64,000 nt of DNA from Balamuthia mandrillaris (GCA_031835245.2 JAVKOQ020000082.1:1-64000), one strand, 5' to 3'; counted from the stretch's first letter, positions 972 to 51,629 are shown. Numbers and translations: made by a program. The notes: generated by a model not told the origin, from the letters alone.

Positions 972-2801
972 CTATTCTTCACCTACATTCACTTCTGCAT
1001 CTTCATATATTGAATCACCATGAGAAATAGTAATTCGTGCATTACTAGCCTTTGTACCTTTATTTCGTTGAAGGCTGTGTTTGAATTATATATATATCAG
1101 TATACAGTAGAAAGTAAACCAAGCGTGTGGTTAAAAAAAATACCTTAGTGAAGTAGTACCAGACTGAGAGGGAAGGTTGATTCCAACTTGACTTAACAAG
1201 TTGGTAACACATCTTCGCCAGACTTTCCAAGTGCGCCGTGATGGAAAGAAATTCAGGAAAAGAAAAAAACCAAGAGAGGAATACCCAAAACCTTGTAACA
1301 TGACAAGGTCGTACTGTACTACTTCATTGCTGAGATTGCAGCTGCTTGCCTTTTTTGTGCCTTTTCCGAGACATAGAAAGTACTGGGAATATTCTTCCTC
1401 AACGTCCTCTTCGCGAGCAGCAAGAAAGATGTTGTAGCTGAAGATGCATATGTAGATAACGAGAAATAAAAAGATGAAGATAAGAAGACGGTAGTAGGCA
1501 AGAAACATCTGCTTCTTGTTATCGTTGCGAAAGGTGATTCTGAGGATTGCTGCCAAAGAAAGGCAGAAGAAAATCAAGCCAAGAACAATCATTATGCCCA
1601 TAGGCAGGAGCCAAAACAGGAGCTGCCATATACCGTCATCTTCTGGTGATACAAAACAACTGCCATGAAGTTAGCATCGTGGAGATATAAAGAAAAGAAG
1701 AACACGAACACAAAAAGACGTACAATGTAGCACCAGCCTGGAAGGAGACCTTACCGGCAATTGCTGGAATGATCGCCATGAGGATCGATACGCCCCATGC
1801 AATCATGTGGTAGCTAAATTGTTGCATCAACACAAACCGCGACGTCTTGGGTAAATATTCTCGCAAATAAAGCTACATTAAAGAGAACGGGAACGAGAAA
1901 GAGTGGGTGAGTGAGAGAGAGAGACATAGGTGTTAAATGTCTTATAGAAATACTAACCGCAATCAGCATGTTAAATGATAAAATGGCCCACCAACAAGTC
2001 GTTGCAATGTATCCAAACTGCAAAATAAAGCCTTGAAGAGTGCATAAACTGCTAACAGCTCCAAGATCCCCAATGGAATAATAAACAGAAAAGTCAAGAG
2101 AATTACCATCGACCACAGAGAGTGACGGAAGCAGGTATTGGTCATCAACACCGCACCAGATGACTTGGTGACCCCCAAAAGAAGGCAAAATGATCGCCCC
2201 AGCCGCTATGTGGGCAGCTATCGTCACCATGAGAACTAAGTTGGAAGGAAACTTGCGCAAGGTGGGGTCGACGGCGTAGGTGAGTGCAACAAGGAAGGAA
2301 CCCGTCCAGGATAACCATCCCATGGTCAGCTGCATAACCTTGGCGGCATTATACTCTTCGTCTGTGTAGGACGGAACAGGACATGTAAAGCCACAGCGTT
2401 GTGTCCCTGGTTTCCGTTCCAGAGGAGGAGAGCAGCTATAATCGGTATGCTGAATGCTTCGGCACTGGGTCGTCAGGGCCTGGCCATCCTCAGTGGTGAT
2501 GGTGTAGGTTGTGTTCTGAAACAACGTTGCGTTCCACAGGTCTATGTCTGTTTCGTTGCACTGCAGTGGCTGTAGGTTGTAATCATACCCTGGCGGAGCA
2601 TACACTCCGGTCCCCAGCGATATACCATAGAGAGCTGAATACTCCACACACTCCGTTACTTGTACAGTACAGCATTGTGAATATAGAGGAATGGAACACC
2701 GTTCTTTGAAGACAGAAGGGTACCGTAAATCTCACAGGCAGCGCGGCATGGTTGCACAGGTACTGCCAAAGGATATCCTGTTGTTAGATAGAATATGTGA
2801 G

Positions 2802-45574: not shown

Positions 45575-47026
45575 TCAGAGACAGTCTTCCCACAGGGACA
45601 TGAAGGCAGAGCGGTCCAAACCGGAGATGATCCTGAAGGTGCAGGGGGCACCGGGCTCCACCCCTTGACCCCCGCTTCGGTACCAATCCACCACGAGCTG
45701 TCCTCGGCAAAAACGCCCGCTCAGCTCCACGGAGGCGTGATACACCTTGGCTTTGGTGATCATCTTTGGGTTGAGCGCCACGGCAACGGCTAACGTATCG
45801 CACATGGTGAACTCTTCTTCTTCCTGTTCTTGCTCTTTGTTGGTATTGTTGTTGTTGGTGCTTTTGCGATAGAGTTGTTCAAACTTGAGGGTGATGCCAC
45901 GCATGAAGGCTCTCCGTTGCTGTCTCAGTGGGTCTGCCTCCTTTTCGTCACCGTCCTTTGAACTTGGTTCGTTGTTGGTTTGAGCTTCGTCTCCTTTGAT
46001 CCAAAGGTCGTACCAGGCCCAAGGGATATTGTACTTTAGTGTTAACTCCCAACTTACCATGTTGACGGGAATGCCCTATTTTTTTCAAAAAATCAGATAA
46101 CGAACTCGAAGAGAAGAGAAGAGAACGATGAAGAGAAGAGAAGAGAAAGAGGGGGAGAGCAACTCGAAAGCTTTCAATAACGATGTGGGCGGCCTCAGGG
46201 TCGCACAGAAAGTTGTATTCAGCAGTCCAAGAGGCGTTGCCCTTGCCCTTGCTGGTGCCTCCCATGAAGATGATGCTTCGCACCTTGGTCGCTATGGATG
46301 GGTCCATACGCACCGCCAATGCCAGGTTGGTCATTGGACCCAGCATCACTATATATCAAGTGTTGAACATCAGTTCTTTGCTCTCTCACTCACTCACTCA
46401 CTCACTCACTCTCTCTCTCTCTCTGTCCAAAGCAGGAGAAGGAGAAGGAGAAGGAGAAGCAGAAGCAGAAGCAGAAGGAGAAGCAGAAGCAGAAGCAGAA
46501 GCAGAAGCAGAAGCAGAAAGAAGAAATTACATATGGTAAAACGATTTGGATGCCGGTTGATCATGTCCACCAAAGCGTTGACGGCATGAACAGGACTGGC
46601 CGTTCGAGAGGGAGGTGGAAGGCTGGAGGTGTAGTCCCCAAGTCCATCGGTGCCATGCCCTGGCCAGCTCTTGTCCTGTTCGTGACGCCCAATAATTGGC
46701 CCTTTGGGGAGAGGCTATGAGAACATGTTTTTCTTTTATTCTTGTTTTGCAAGAGAGAGTCAAAAAAAAAACGAACCCGCAGCTCCTGTGAAGAAAGGGA
46801 TGGCCTCAGGCCCTTGATTAACCTCTGGAAAGAGCTCCAACACTCGCGCTACGTTTTCCGAGGCCTGGGCGACGCGAACGTTGCCAAAGACGGTGGTGAT
46901 GGCGCGCACTCTGGCTTTGTCGCTGTGGTACAGCGCCAGCATCAACGCGGCGGCGTCGTCGATGCCCATATCCGTGTCGATGATCAGCTCCGCCCCTCCT
47001 TCATCTTTCGCTTCTTCTTTCTCCAT
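45575..47026 (-). CDS. Inosine/uridine-preferring nucleoside hydrolase
   Basis: IIDTDMGIDDA (DxDxxxDD), WHGTDGLG, LGPMTNLALA, AEYNFLCDPEAA, CDTLAVA, RGQLVVDW. Confidence 0.93.
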
Positions 47027-47139
47027 CTTTCGTTTCTGTGGTTCGATCGATCCCCAACAGCGAGCCACCAATGGAAAATCAAACAACGAGTTGCCCTGTC
47101 GACAAAAAAGGAACCGAAGAAACGGAAAGGGAAAAAAAG

Positions 47140-47367
47140 GGCAGCCAAAAAGTCCCTGCGCTTTCCCTGCTACTTTCAGCGGGGAGAATAAGTGTCGACA
47201 AGGACCAGCATCAAACCAAACCATTGCGCGTTGGTCAGGTGAACACCGTGAACGGAGAGCAAGGCTGCGCCTAGCGGAGAGCGGCAAAGGTACCTTCCCT
47301 CTCACCACGGTGTTCATCAAGGACTGCTTTGGGAGCTGCTGCTGGCCATGCACTCTAGCTAGGTTTT
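47140..47367 (+). ncRNA. Putative structured ncRNA of unknown class
   Basis: A closing helix (47141-47155 with 47321-47339) encloses three hairpins, including a 13-bp stem (47238-47250/47306-47318). G-U wobbles favour the + strand; a T4 run follows at 47364-47367. Confidence 0.4.
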
Positions 47368-47676
47368 AACAACCAGTCCAAACAGAAGGAGGTATGCGAA
47401 AATGAGGTGGTAGTGCCAATAATAAGGTTTGTTAGGCACCCGCCAATGGAAGACCGCCGTCCCCCAATTCCACGAACAGACTTCATGTTACACTGTTTTG
47501 GAGATGACCAAGATTACGTCCAAAATCTGTCCACCTCGTATCTCACTCTTTCAGCTGGGAGAAGGGTGGACGGATGTGAGCCAAGATTTGGTACTGCTCG
47601 CATCTGTCCAATTTATTGTAGGCAATAAATCCTTCGAGAGAGAATCGAAGAGAGAGATAAAACCGACTGAACGACC

Positions 47677-48110
47677 ATGGAAGAGGTGGAGAGGATCATC
47701 GCTGTCTTCAAGCAGATCGACGTTGATGGAAGTGGAGGTACCTCTTATTTTTTTTTTAAAAAAAAACGAAAACCAAAAACCACCGCTTTTTTTTGTAACG
47801 AAGGTCTAATAAAACTAATTCGAAACGGGTTGCTTTGCTTGATTATTTTTTTTTTGAAAAAAAAGTGGTGGACCGATCAGAGTTTGAACAGGCGGTGACC
47901 CAGCTGGAGAAAGACAAGGGCACCCCCGAGCACCTCATCCCCGAGATTGTGGAGAAAAAATTCAGGAAGGCCGACAGGGATGGCTCTGGCACTGTGGATA
48001 TGAGCGAGTTCCTCCGCAGCTACTACGATATTTTCGATGCCGAAAGAAAGGAAACCGCCAAAATCGTGGCTGAGTCTTCTGGTTTGGTTTCTCCCCCTCC
48101 CTTCTCTCAT

Positions 48111-48146
<36 letters not shown>

Positions 48147-50703
48147 TCATCGTTCTCTTCTCTTCCTTTCTCCTTTCTCTCCTTTTCTCTTAGTCATTCT
48201 CTCTTCTACTCTTCTCTTCACGCTCTCACATATACAAACAAAACAGGTCTGAGCGAGACAGAAGCAGAGCAACTGTTGCAAAGGTTCGAGGAATACGATC
48301 TGGACGGTGATGGCGTTATTGGTAAGAACGACAACCTCAGCCATTTCTTTCTTTTGCAGACTTCTGTTTTTTTTTCTCCTCTCATGCAACACACCGTTTT
48401 TCTGCGTTGTGTAAATCAACTTTCTTCTTTGTTTTCCACACGTTTTCTTTTTCTTTCCTTCTTTCTTTCTTTCTTTTTCTTGACACGTTATAACAAGCAA
48501 ACCTATTGTTGGTAACCTATCTTTGTTCTCACACGCAACACGAAAATATAACGAACAGATCAAGACGAGTTCTATCAGCTGAAAGCCGAATTAGCACCTC
48601 ACGTCTCCAAGTTGCTGGTAAGACAGGACAGCAACAAGCTATTCAGAAAAGCCGACAAGGACAAGACAGGCGCTCTCAGCAAGGCGGAGTTTCTTGAAGC
48701 CGTTTCTGGTCTCCTTGGTCAGTCTTCCTCTTTGGGTGACAGCAGTGGCGGTTCATCCTCTTCAGGTATGAGCGCAGACAGCGTGTGGAACGAGTTCACG
48801 GAGGCCGACAACGTGGTGGCCATCCTGCAACGCTTTGACGAGCTGAAAGAGATCTGCGGCGTTCCAGCCGGCGCCACCGCAGCGCAGCTCTACGATGCCA
48901 TCAAAGCCAAGACCCAAGCCAATTATCGCAGCAAGGTCCTGTGGAAGCTGCTTGACGTTAAGAAAGCCGAGGCCGTTTACAAACCCAAACCTGGGGACAA
49001 GGAACTTAGAGTGTTGATCGTGGGTGCGGGACCTGCTGGCCTGAGAACTGCGGTGGAGGCCCTGCTTTTGGGCGCACGTGTGACTATCTTGGAGAAGAGG
49101 CTTAAGTTCACGCGTCACAACTTGCTTCACATCTGGGACAGCTCTATTCGTGATCTTAAGAACATTGGAGCCAAATATTTCTTCCCTCAATTCTGTACTG
49201 GAGGAATCAAGTGCGTGTTTTTTTTTTCAACGCTCTCTCTCTCTCTCGCGTCCTTTCTTATTTCTCTTTCTTCAATTTATCTAACATACGTTTTGTTGGC
49301 TCAGTCACATTGCCATCAGAAGGTTGCAAACGCTGTTGTTGAAGGTGTGTTTGCTGTTGGGAGCAAGGTACTACCCTCGCGTGGACTACCAGCGCACCGT
49401 GGAGGACAGCGGCAGCGACCTCTGGAAGGCCGAAGTTACCAGCAAAGGAGCTGCCCCCAAAGATGAAGATCTTTTGTTCAACGTAATCGTTGGCGCTGAT
49501 GGACAAAACTCCAAAATAGCGGCAGACTTCCATTTTGAGCGAAAGATAACTAAAGGAGGATTGGCCATTGGCATCACTGCCAACTTTGGTATTGTTTCTT
49601 ATATTTCGTTTCTGTTTCTTTGTTTTAACTGTTGTCATAACAACGCGCAGAGAATAAGCAAACCAAGGAAGAAAACAATCTTCGTGAGTTTGGGTTGTTG
49701 GCGGTGTACAACCAAGGCTTCTTCAAAGCGCTTAACGAGAAGTACTCCATTGACCTCGAAAACTTGGTGTACTACAGAGGAGAGACACATTACTTTGTCA
49801 TGACCGTCAAAAAGCAAAGGTTAACCATCATTACTCGTTCTTCTGCTTGTTCTTTCTTTTTCTTTTCTTTTTTCATCGATTCTTGTTTTTCTTCCATTTT
49901 GTCTTTTCTTTCTTTGCTTTGTAATCTTCTATGCGAATTTTCTTCGATACTAACCCTACGTGTTGTTTTCAAAGTTTGTTGGCCAAAGGAGTGTTGAAAC
50001 AGGACAGCCAAGACACACAAGGCCTGGTGGCTCCCAACAACGTGGCCAAAGAGAACTTGGAGCAGCTCTGCCGTGAGGTCGCCCTCCATGTTGGGCTTCC
50101 CACCAGCGTTTCCTTCTCCAAGAACAGCCGTCACAACAATGATGTTGCCATTTTCGACTTTTCCAAGTAACTCTCGTCTTTTTCTTCTTCTTTTTTTCTT
50201 CATCTTCTTTCTTCTTACATATTTATATAAACAACAACTTAGCAAGCAAGTATGTACCGAACAAGCCAAATTGTTTGGAGCTGGTATGGTAGAGTTAGGC
50301 GTATCTGGTGGGCCTTCTAGCTCCTCTGCAGCCGCTGGTGGTCCCCGCCAACCACTTCTCGTTTGTCTGGCCGGCGACTCGGCCATCGAACCCTTCTGGC
50401 CTTTGGGCACTGGTTCAGTCTTTCTCCTCTTCTGCTTTCTTGTTCTCTAGAAACTAAACTCGTTCTTCTGAAACGACAGGAGCGAATCGTGCCATTTTGG
50501 CGGCGCAGGATGCTGCCTGGATGATGAAGCGCATGAAGGAGGGAGGGGAGAAAGAGGACCCTCACAAGCTCAGGGAGGAGTGGGGCAGCTATTACAAGAT
50601 CCTGATGACCGCCGAGCAGAAGGACTTGGAAAAGAACTTTGGCAAGCATACCATGGACCCCTCCACACGTTACACCAAGAACACACTCTCCCACTTCCAT
50701 TGA
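47677..50703 (+). CDS. EF-hand x4 plus MICAL-type FAD monooxygenase (F-actin methionine oxidase family)
   Basis: EF loops DVDGSGVVDRSE, DRDGSGTVDMSE, DLDGDGVIDQDE, DKDKTGALSKAE. MO motifs IVGAGPAGLRTAVE, LEKR..FTRHNLLHIW, LAIGITANF, IDLENLVYYRGETHYFVMT, DVAIFDF, GDSAIEPFWPLGTG. Confidence 0.9.
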
Positions 50704-51629
50704 AACAACCCTTTCAACGTTGCGGGACCAACCCTTCCATCTCCTTCGTTTTCTCCTTTGTACTATTTTTTAATATCTTAATTTTTCCTATAAAATATTG
50801 TCCACAAAAAATTTGCTGTGCGAAATTTTTCCACGAATGCGCGTTCTAAATTATTAAAATTCCTAAAAATAAATTCTTGCGCTGGCAATGAGGCGGTGTT
50901 TTGCCGGGACGTACAATGTCCACGAGTTTTACGGCAATTTTTCAACCTGTTAGAGGTGGACAAATTGTACCCCTAACCGTCTTCACCGTAAACAAAACGG
51001 ACCATAATAAAGTAAATACACTTTTGCATTGCGGTGACCACAAAAAAAAAGAACCACAAGAAAAAGAAGTGAAAAAAAAAACTAAAAAACAAAGAAGCTG
51101 GTACACAAAAAAAACCCAAACAGAACACGGGAACCTTGTAGGGTACAGCAACAACACCGCCGCTCTTGTTTTTTTTTGTTTGTTTGTCTCAGTTCTCAAT
51201 TTTTTTCTCCGTCATTATTCGACAGATTCCAGAAGGGGAGAGAGAGAGAGAGAAAAAAAGCATCACACACACACTCACGGACGGAGTGTGGTGCCGTTTT
51301 AGCTCATCCCTCTCGTTCTTCGCTGTTTGTTGTTTCAAGACACTGTACCGTTTTTTTTTTCATTCTTCTATCAGTTAAGGTTCGTCCCCTTACTTTTTCT
51401 TGCTGGTTTTCTTAATGATGACATATTTGACTTTGCGTCGCCTCTTCCATTCAATCTCCATTTTGCTTCTTTCTTTCTCTTTCTTTCTTCTTATTTTTTC
51501 TTTCATTGTTTGGCTAATTTTTTTTGTTCTTTTTTTTTTCCCCCTTCTTTACTGCAACAACAGTTTTTTCTTTTCTTTTTTTTTTTAAAAAAACAAAACA
51601 GAGAAGTTCGCCCTCTCTGCTTTTGAACT

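What the first reader, a model, noticed from the sequence alone, without database searches (positions are those of the whole stretch)
47677..50703. Calmodulin-like 4xEF-hand MICAL: a putative Ca2+-gated actin oxidase
Seen: four canonical EF-hand loops are fused N-terminally to a complete MICAL monooxygenase domain, and the protein stops right after it. Known: animal MICALs oxidise actin Met44/Met47 to disassemble F-actin and are regulated by C-terminal CH, LIM and Rab-binding domains, all absent here. Inference: direct coupling of calcium to redox-driven actin disassembly or H2O2 production in amoeboid motility or phagocytosis, analogous to EF-hand control of NOX5. I do not know this architecture as described.
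Basis: partly seen in the sequence, partly recalled or inferred. Interest (0 to 1): 0.82.

Follow-up and report, generated by a model that had tools for sequence, protein, structure and literature searches.

The report
Calcium-sensor MICAL actin oxidase of amoebae
This is a real, spliced and expressed amoeba gene that fuses four calcium-binding EF-hand loops to an intact MICAL oxidase domain, an enzyme type that reviews describe as animal-only; it likely lets calcium signals control chemical breakdown of actin filaments, though neither actin oxidation nor calcium control has been tested.

Summary
Observation confirmed. Nine exons (47677-50703, +) splice to a 680-aa protein identical to an NCBI record labelled Balamuthia mandrillaris 'mical1'. 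RNA reads join 7 of 8 introns, and one spliced contig spans the coding sequence from EF1 to the stop; EF4 and the FAD motif share one exon. Four EF loops carry the calcium ligands. The monooxygenase is 40% identical to mouse MICAL1, keeps its FAD and active-site residues, and ends the protein (no CH, LIM or bMERB). The fusion is a family: 12 EF-bearing relatives, named ones from Vermamoeba, Luapelamoeba and Acanthamoeba. Some add ADF/cofilin or gelsolin+LIM domains, which points to actin as substrate. MICAL domains also occur in other amoebae and oomycetes, although a 2025 review calls MICAL Drosophila/vertebrate-only. Against: the actin-facing segments match mouse no better than the domain average; two long relatives lost all four loops; the module is not calmodulin proper; nothing biochemical is shown. 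Best reading: an F-actin oxidase switched on by calcium (0.45; about 0.6 for calcium control in either direction). Ten literature searches found no description. New variant of a known kind; interest 0.7.

The parts
47677..50703 (+). Whole gene, ATG to TGA; 9 exons, 680 aa, EF4-MICAL monooxygenase fusion
47677..47737 (+). Exon 1: entering helix and first 6 residues of EF1 loop (loop starts 47719)
   Evidence: X1 contig piece 47647-47735
47866..48081 (+). Exon 2: rest of EF1, EF2 loop (47973-48008), conserved E80-R81
48247..48321 (+). Exon 3: entering helix and most of EF3 loop (starts 48297)
   Evidence: joints on both sides in X7, X8, X1
48559..49210 (+). Exon 4: invariant E-F-Y-Q-x-K helix after EF3, EF4 loop (48654-48689), Ser/Gly linker (about 48720-48773), MO N-terminal helical subdomain (from about 48774), GxGxxG motif (49023-49040), helix 311-320 with R315 (49137-49166)
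   Evidence: EF4 and the FAD motif lie in this one exon
49305..49588 (+). Exon 5: MO domain
49651..49819 (+). Exon 6: MO small subdomain (Rossman_Mical; ENLVYYRGETHYFVM)
49975..50166 (+). Exon 7: MO domain (Rossman_Mical, second part)
50243..50412 (+). Exon 8: low-confidence Ser/Gly/Ala insert (about residues 562-587), then GD motif and EPFWPLG loop (50373-50412; W602 = mouse W400)
50480..50703 (+). Exon 9: MO C-terminal helices, DPxTRY motif, short tail ending FH, stop

Best explanation
The gene encodes a four-EF-hand module fused to an intact MICAL monooxygenase, and it likely works as a calcium-switched actin oxidase: FAD and NADPH would be used to oxidise methionines of F-actin (Met44/Met47 in animal MICALs) and weaken filaments. 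Shown: gene structure, splicing, four ligand-bearing loops, MICAL fold and catalytic residues, absence of CH/LIM/bMERB, conservation of the fusion across amoebae. Inferred: FAD/NADPH chemistry (strong); F-actin as substrate (about 0.8); calcium binding by the loops (about 0.9); coupling of calcium to activity (about 0.6 overall). The mechanism I commit to: the acidic EF module replaces the animal C-terminal brake. Its C-lobe helix (Y123, Q124, K126) would dock on the basic face of the enzyme near helix 311-320 (R315) and restrain it at resting calcium; calcium binding would shift the module and free NADPH or filament access. The docking site and the direction are the weakest steps.
For: Catalysis: GxGxxG 273-278, E296, R298, R303, N305, H308 (mouse H126), W310, G594-D595 and P600-F-W-P-L604-G (mouse 398-403) are kept; 38 of 55 residues identical to mouse in the three FAD-surrounding segments against 189 of 484 overall. 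Model pLDDT 87, Foldseek top 10 all MICAL, TM by target up to 0.90. Cleft residues named in PMC11557892 and PMC11315924 (G150, E257, Y265, Q267, V285, F399, P401, L402) are identical, I264 is V. The fly redox domain alone suffices to oxidise actin (PMC5772675, passage); the isolated MO is fully active, so a brake is needed (PMC11315924, passage); Acanthamoeba actin responds to Mical oxidation (PMC10705957, passage). Relatives carry extra actin modules: ADF-H in P0016 (38.6 bits, cut-off 22.4), LRR+gelsolin+LIM in P0008 and P0132. EF module net charge -15, MO +8. Of 36 coding differences among the 40 shown between reads and window, 30 are synonymous where 22% would be expected. Docking hints, all weak: whole-protein pTM 0.82 against about 0.68-0.72 in my rough estimate for an unplaced module; residues 81-170 score pLDDT 73-84 in the full model but 52-75 alone; R315 is Arg in 11 of 11 EF-bearing rows, 0 of 3 EF-less close relatives and 1 of 11 other non-animal rows.
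Against: No biochemical data. The actin-protected/brake segments (mouse 148-158, 257-267, 440-453) are 14 of 36 identical to mouse, no better than the 39% domain average, while a fly Mical has 26 of 36; the basic patch is kept at 8 of 15 sites (mouse 15, that fly Mical also 8) and the N-terminal subdomain is near neutral (13 basic, 12 acidic). Loops decay in the family: none of four passes in P0132 and P0008; EF4 passes in 5 of 11. One relative (P0299) has a long Pro-rich linker of about 190 residues between module and enzyme. The Atlas's own model has pTM 0.72. The EF-less comparison may rest on one loss, not two (AU p 0.070). The EF clade has SH-aLRT 98 in a quick 56-row tree but was not recovered in a careful 25-row tree.
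Confidence: 0.45

Rival explanations
1. It is an actin oxidase, but the EF module is mainly a structural or targeting domain that works without calcium, standing in for the CH domain or binding a partner.
For: Y123, Q124, K126 (11 of 11) and E80, L103, E107 (10 of 10) are invariant although they are not loop ligands; the Acanthamoeba-type and Luapelamoeba long forms keep them with 0 of 4 loops intact, one with the EF3 loop deleted.
Against: This protein keeps four ligand-bearing loops, and EF1 passes the strict pattern in 7 of 9 relatives that cover it, EF2 and EF3 in 6 of 10 each, at about 40-50% overall identity; that retention is hard to explain without calcium binding.
Confidence: 0.2
2. 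It is a calcium-regulated actin oxidase, but calcium turns it off, as with the EF-hand headpieces that reduce actin binding of plastin/fimbrin and non-muscle alpha-actinin (recalled).
For: Same anatomy as the best explanation; nothing here fixes the direction. Calcium-loaded lobes usually open a hydrophobic pocket that could clamp onto the enzyme (general knowledge).
Against: The closest enzyme analogies (NOX5/DUOX/RBOH, plant CDPKs; recalled) are switched on, and with no other brake in the protein an off-by-calcium enzyme would be active at rest.
Confidence: 0.15
3. The enzyme is a calcium-gated NADPH oxidase making H2O2, or oxidises a protein other than actin.
For: Actin-facing segments show no excess conservation with animals and the basic patch is thinner. 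MICAL1 MO has a measurable NADPH oxidase activity without substrate (PMC3645671, passages), and other substrates such as CaMKII are reported (PMC9982024, passage). Many non-animal MICAL domains have no actin-binding Pfam domain.
Against: Within the family the domain was joined to ADF-H and to gelsolin+LIM modules; the cleft residues named in the cryo-EM papers are kept.
Confidence: 0.18
4. The fusion is a gene-model artefact or a dead gene.
For: Intron 1 has no listed raw-read joint; the DNA beyond 51200 was not covered by reads.
Against: EF4 and the FAD motif are in one exon; joints for 7 of 8 introns; one contig spans the spliced coding sequence; differences are mostly synonymous; the same fusion exists in other genera and ends at the same place.
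Confidence: 0.02

Closest known systems
Animal MICAL1/2/3 and Drosophila Mical ([F-actin]-monooxygenases; PDB 2bry, 4txi, 6ici, 8y6k, 9ewy)
   Same: MO domain about 40% identical to mouse MICAL1, same fold, FAD motifs, H126/W400 equivalents and N-terminal helical subdomain.
   Different: MO is C-terminal and ends the protein; no CH, LIM, Pro-rich or bMERB region; four EF-hands in front; branches outside the animal clade; thinner basic patch.
Undescribed amoebozoan EF-MICAL proteins in databases (Vermamoeba P0143, Luapelamoeba P0299 and P0008, Acanthamoeba ACA1_209420 P0009 and the longer P0132, environmental P0002, P0003, P0004, P0005, P0006, P0016, P0017)
   Same: Homologous two-lobe EF module directly or via a linker before the MO; 41-49% identity over the alignment.
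   Different: They vary in how many loops are intact and in added domains (ADF-H; LRR+gelsolin+coiled coil+LIM). They carry only automatic names; no paper found.
Calmodulin, calcineurin B, troponin C, centrin
   Same: Four EF-hands in two pairs; best PDB sequence hits are calcineurin B and calmodulin (E 2e-13 to 5e-8).
   Different: Longer helices and spacing (42/53/40), an extra helix between lobes; the two halves are 36% identical over 70 aa; Foldseek TM at most 0.39 for a low-confidence model (pTM 0.45). Not a calmodulin orthologue.
NOX5/DUOX/RBOH oxidases and plant CDPKs (recalled)
   Same: An EF-hand module fused to an enzyme on one chain, a design that gives direct calcium control.
   Different: Unrelated catalytic domains; no transmembrane heme domain or kinase here. 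Analogy only.

Membership tests
MICAL family (animal, classical definition) | MICAL-type flavoprotein monooxygenase domain | tested here: met
   E 7e-95 to 2bry; PF25413 139 bits, cut-off 27; Foldseek ranks 1-10 all MICAL, next family E 6e-13
MICAL family (animal, classical definition) | FAD-binding and active-site residues (GxGxxG, GD, H126, F399-W400-P401) | tested here: met
   38 of 55 identical in FAD-surrounding segments
MICAL family (animal, classical definition) | MO at the N-terminus followed by CH, LIM and coiled-coil/bMERB | tested here: not met
   No such Pfam hit at E 0.01; protein ends at residue 680
MICAL family (animal, classical definition) | Descent within the animal MICAL clade | tested here: not met
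   Outside the animal clade in both trees; an older branch of the same enzyme family
MICAL family (animal, classical definition) | Conserved F-actin-facing surface and basic patch | tested here: inconclusive
   Named cleft residues kept, but segments 14 of 36 identical and patch 8 of 15
MICAL family (animal, classical definition) | F-actin-stimulated NADPH use and Met44/Met47 oxidation | not testable with these tools
   Needs purified protein
Calcium-binding EF-hand proteins | Paired helix-loop-helix motifs with ligands at loop positions 1, 3, 5, 12 | tested here: met
   3 strict and 1 relaxed loop; helices and paired short strands in the model
Calmodulin proper | High identity and loop spacing of calmodulin | tested here: not met
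   Weak hits only; spacing 42/53/40; calmodulin spacing recalled
Calcium-gated EF-hand enzymes (NOX5/CDPK type of control) | EF module binds calcium and changes catalytic activity | not testable with these tools
   Only indirect hints of docking

The most novel reading that the evidence does not exclude
Redox disassembly of actin by MICAL enzymes is much older than animals, and amoebae wired it straight to calcium: an EF-hand module replaces the Rab/plexin-released brake, making a one-protein calcium-to-actin-oxidation switch, which some lineages further joined to cofilin-like or gelsolin domains.
Probability: 0.5. Interest if true: 0.85.

Novelty: new variant of a known kind. Interest (0 to 1): 0.7.

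Why it matters
[quoted passage not shown] Expressed, catalytically intact MICAL domains in several amoebozoan genera and in oomycetes would change that picture. No calcium-sensing MICAL turned up in the papers searched. A 680-aa soluble protein with sensor and enzyme on one chain makes the link between calcium and oxidative actin disassembly directly testable with standard assays, and, if it works as proposed, would be a compact calcium-controlled tool for actin studies.

Tried and rejected
No whole genome is held, so the organism's own actin Met44/47, MsrB/SelR and further paralogues could not be checked; one paralogue without EF-hands (P0011) came from the protein search. A second structural aligner run was not obtained. 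Read coverage stops at 51200, so splicing into the next gene was not examined; the stop codon is covered by reads and relatives end at the same place. ESM Atlas: no cluster at 0.9 or more; best three 0.85 are MICAL-domain clusters (oomycete, chordate, diatom-led), none with EF-hand families shown; a lead only. EF module folded alone was low in confidence (pTM 0.45) and matched no solved four-EF protein as a whole. 'EF module lost twice' was considered and is not established: neither a single EF-less group (AU p 0.070) nor an EF-only clade (p 0.052) is rejected; the excess of MO columns changed in EF-less rows (8.3 and 6.3 against a control mean of 2.4, maximum 6 of 55 pairs) may therefore reflect shared ancestry. 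Gene neighbours (nucleoside hydrolase upstream on the minus strand, a long unassigned gene downstream) give no functional clue. Earlier findings of this scan: nothing by sequence, words or place. Literature searches were too loose (they admitted papers without MICAL; 30 of 1,183, 20 of 22,254 and 40 of 236 listed) and add little.

Full report
GENE. The region is eukaryotic, with pyrimidine-rich introns. Nine exons with GT-AG ends (47677-47737, 47866-48081, 48247-48321, 48559-49210, 49305-49588, 49651-49819, 49975-50166, 50243-50412, 50480-50703) give an open frame of 680 aa. A protein search with exon 4 returned a 680-aa NCBI record, P0001 (KAL6065911.1), automatically named '[F-actin]-monooxygenase mical1 [Balamuthia mandrillaris]'; it is identical to my model. 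The window is therefore very likely from that amoeba.

TRANSCRIPT. Four runs were laid on 47200-51200. Raw RNA reads of X7 and X8 (one study, about 3% and 5% of each run read) cover the exons and show joints for introns 2-8, all GT-AG when read at the listed shift (intron 5 also has a variant row explained by a one-base difference). Intron 1 has no row in the joint table, but a single 2092-letter contig of X1 lies in consecutive pieces from 47647 to 50722 and skips 128 bases there. EF4 and the GxGxxG motif are in the same exon, so that part of the fusion needs no splicing at all. No joint leaves exon 9 within the stretch laid. Of the 40 differences shown (94 more were not shown), 36 are coding: 30 synonymous, 6 not, no stops, against 22% synonymous expected.

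EF MODULE. Loops start at 15, 57, 110 and 150. Three meet a strict ligand pattern, EF4 a relaxed one; Pfam counts four stretches. The halves are 36% identical over 70 aa. PDB sequence hits are calcineurin B and calmodulin at low scores, and the module folded alone (pLDDT 72, pTM 0.45) matches no four-EF structure above TM 0.39. It is a distinct two-lobe module, not calmodulin. It is acidic (net -15) and joined by a Ser/Gly linker to a basic enzyme (net +8).

ENZYME. Residues 190-673 align with mouse MICAL1 at E 7e-95, 40% identical. The AlphaFold model (65 sequences; pLDDT 87, pTM 0.82) finds only MICAL structures in the top ten. All FAD and active-site positions I checked are kept. From the two cryo-EM papers (PMC11557892: passages and section 9; PMC11315924: passages and section 7) I took the cleft where the animal brake helix and probably F-actin bind. 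The named residues are kept, but the segments as a whole are 14 of 36 identical, equal to the domain average, against 26 of 36 for a fly Mical. The basic patch listed in PMC3645671 (passages) is kept at 8 of 15 sites. So catalysis looks intact; the actin-binding face is neither confirmed nor excluded.

FAMILY. Three word-based searches and one full HMMER search gave 12 EF-bearing rows used in the tree. Named sources: Vermamoeba vermiformis (P0143, 684 aa, same architecture), Luapelamoeba hula (P0299, P0008), Acanthamoeba castellanii (P0009; the 1700-aa P0132 is unnamed, its MO nearly identical to that of P0009); the rest are environmental. P0016 adds an ADF/cofilin domain; P0008 and P0132 add LRR, gelsolin and LIM domains. 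In 11 rows scored (P0017 and near-duplicates left out), EF1 passes the strict pattern in 7 of 9 that cover it, EF2 in 6 of 10, EF3 in 6 of 10, EF4 (strict or relaxed) in 5 of 11; all four pass in P0001, P0002 and P0143, none in P0132 and P0008. Y123, Q124 and K126 on the helix after EF3 are invariant in 11 of 11. MICAL domains without EF-hands occur in Physarum, Thecamoeba, Amoeba proteus, Copromyxa, Pyxidicula, protostelids, a second Balamuthia gene and a second Vermamoeba cluster, and outside Amoebozoa in Phytophthora, Achlya, Lagenidium, Paulinella and (partial) Rhodelphis; transcriptome-only hits could be contaminants. A quick mixture-model tree of 56 MO domains puts all 12 EF-bearing rows and 3 EF-less rows in one clade (SH-aLRT 98, no bootstrap). 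A careful LG+G4 tree of 25 rows does not recover that clade with support, and AU tests do not settle one or two losses. The shared module sequence, not the tree, is the main argument for a single origin of the fusion. Both trees place these proteins outside the animal clade.

MECHANISM. The isolated animal MO is fully active and is held back by a C-terminal helix; the redox domain alone oxidises actin (PMC5772675, passage); Acanthamoeba actin is affected by Mical oxidation (PMC10705957, passage). This protein lacks the animal brake and has a calcium sensor instead. Three weak hints suggest that the module touches the enzyme: pTM 0.82 against about 0.68-0.72 estimated for an unplaced module (my rough calculation; the Atlas model has 0.72); higher confidence of residues 81-170 in the full model than alone; and four of 15 columns that are conserved in EF-bearing rows but changed in at least two of three EF-less relatives fall in helix 311-320, with R315 in 11 of 11 against 0 of 3, subject to the ancestry caveat above. 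I therefore favour a docked module that restrains the enzyme and is shifted by calcium (0.45). Rivals: calcium-independent module (0.2), H2O2 output or another substrate (0.18), calcium-off (0.15), artefact (0.02).

LITERATURE. Ten full-text searches of the open library (search listings) showed no paper on an EF-hand MICAL or a non-animal MICAL enzyme; MICAL+amoeba+calcium+'actin oxidation' gave 0 papers; 20 of 26 MICAL+Acanthamoeba and 20 of 44 MICAL+Dictyostelium papers were listed. Three searches were too loose to weigh much. PMC11853071 (passage) says MICAL genes are known only from Drosophila and vertebrates; PMC3305314 (passages) found none in its non-animal genomes, but searched by LIM domain and only close relatives of animals. 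PMC9982024, PMC3221843, PMC12050087 and PMC12954983 (passages) add no non-animal enzyme. Subscription papers and supplements were not seen; genome papers could list such genes in supplementary tables. Databases already label these proteins automatically. NOX5, CDPK, plastin and alpha-actinin comparisons are recalled.

VERDICT. A real, expressed, conserved amoebozoan variant of the MICAL enzyme with a four-EF-hand module in place of the animal regulatory tail. It works like a MICAL as far as sequence and fold can show, but fails the classical architecture test. Novelty: new variant of a known kind. Interest 0.7.

Noticed in passing
P0132 (1700 aa) and P0008 (1929 aa): Acanthamoeba-type and Luapelamoeba proteins with LRR + gelsolin repeats + long charged coiled coil + LIM + decayed EF module + MICAL MO, a flightless-I-like front joined to an actin oxidase. 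The annotated ACA1_209420 (646 aa) looks like only the last part, with an apparent gap in the MO N-terminal subdomain.
   Followed up: partly
P0016 (898 aa, environmental): ADF/cofilin-homology domain + EF module + MICAL MO on one chain; cofilin and Mical are reported to act together in animals (title seen in a reference list).
   Followed up: partly
P0011 (Balamuthia, 934 aa) and P0013 (803 aa, cluster includes a Vermamoeba member): EF-less MICAL domains preceded by a hydrophobic, possibly membrane-spanning segment (judged by eye) and a long charged coiled coil: possible membrane-anchored MICALs.
   Followed up: partly
P0193, P0235, P0259 (Phytophthora, Lagenidium, Achlya); P0248 (Paulinella); P0243; P0265 (Rhodelphis): MICAL monooxygenase domains outside Amorphea, often C-terminal; P0243 has an N-terminal LIM domain, P0248 an IQ-like stretch near its N-terminus (by eye), P0265 a long unrelated domain in front of a partial MO.
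   Followed up: partly
window 45575-47031, minus strand: Inosine-uridine-preferring nucleoside hydrolase gene, divergent from the MICAL gene (Pfam PF01156).
   Followed up: no
window 51630-about 60860, plus strand: Long ORFs (339, 599, 880, 755 aa) starting with an FG-containing N-terminus; no Pfam family above its cut-off in the ORFs scanned. Possibly one large unassigned gene.
   Followed up: no
window 1814-2731, minus strand: Frizzled/Smoothened-type membrane region (PF01534, 33.5 bits, cut-off 22.3).
   Followed up: no
window 8831-43501: Ordinary genes by Pfam: exo/endonuclease-phosphatase, ThiF, Mob1, 2OG-Fe(II) oxygenase, glycosyltransferase 90, S28 peptidase, a 919-aa LRR ORF, GMP synthase, NAD-glutamate dehydrogenase.
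   Followed up: no
window about 50275-50355: Exon 8 carries a Ser/Gly/Ala-rich insert of about 20 residues in the MO domain that close relatives lack; it is expressed and has low model confidence.
   Followed up: partly
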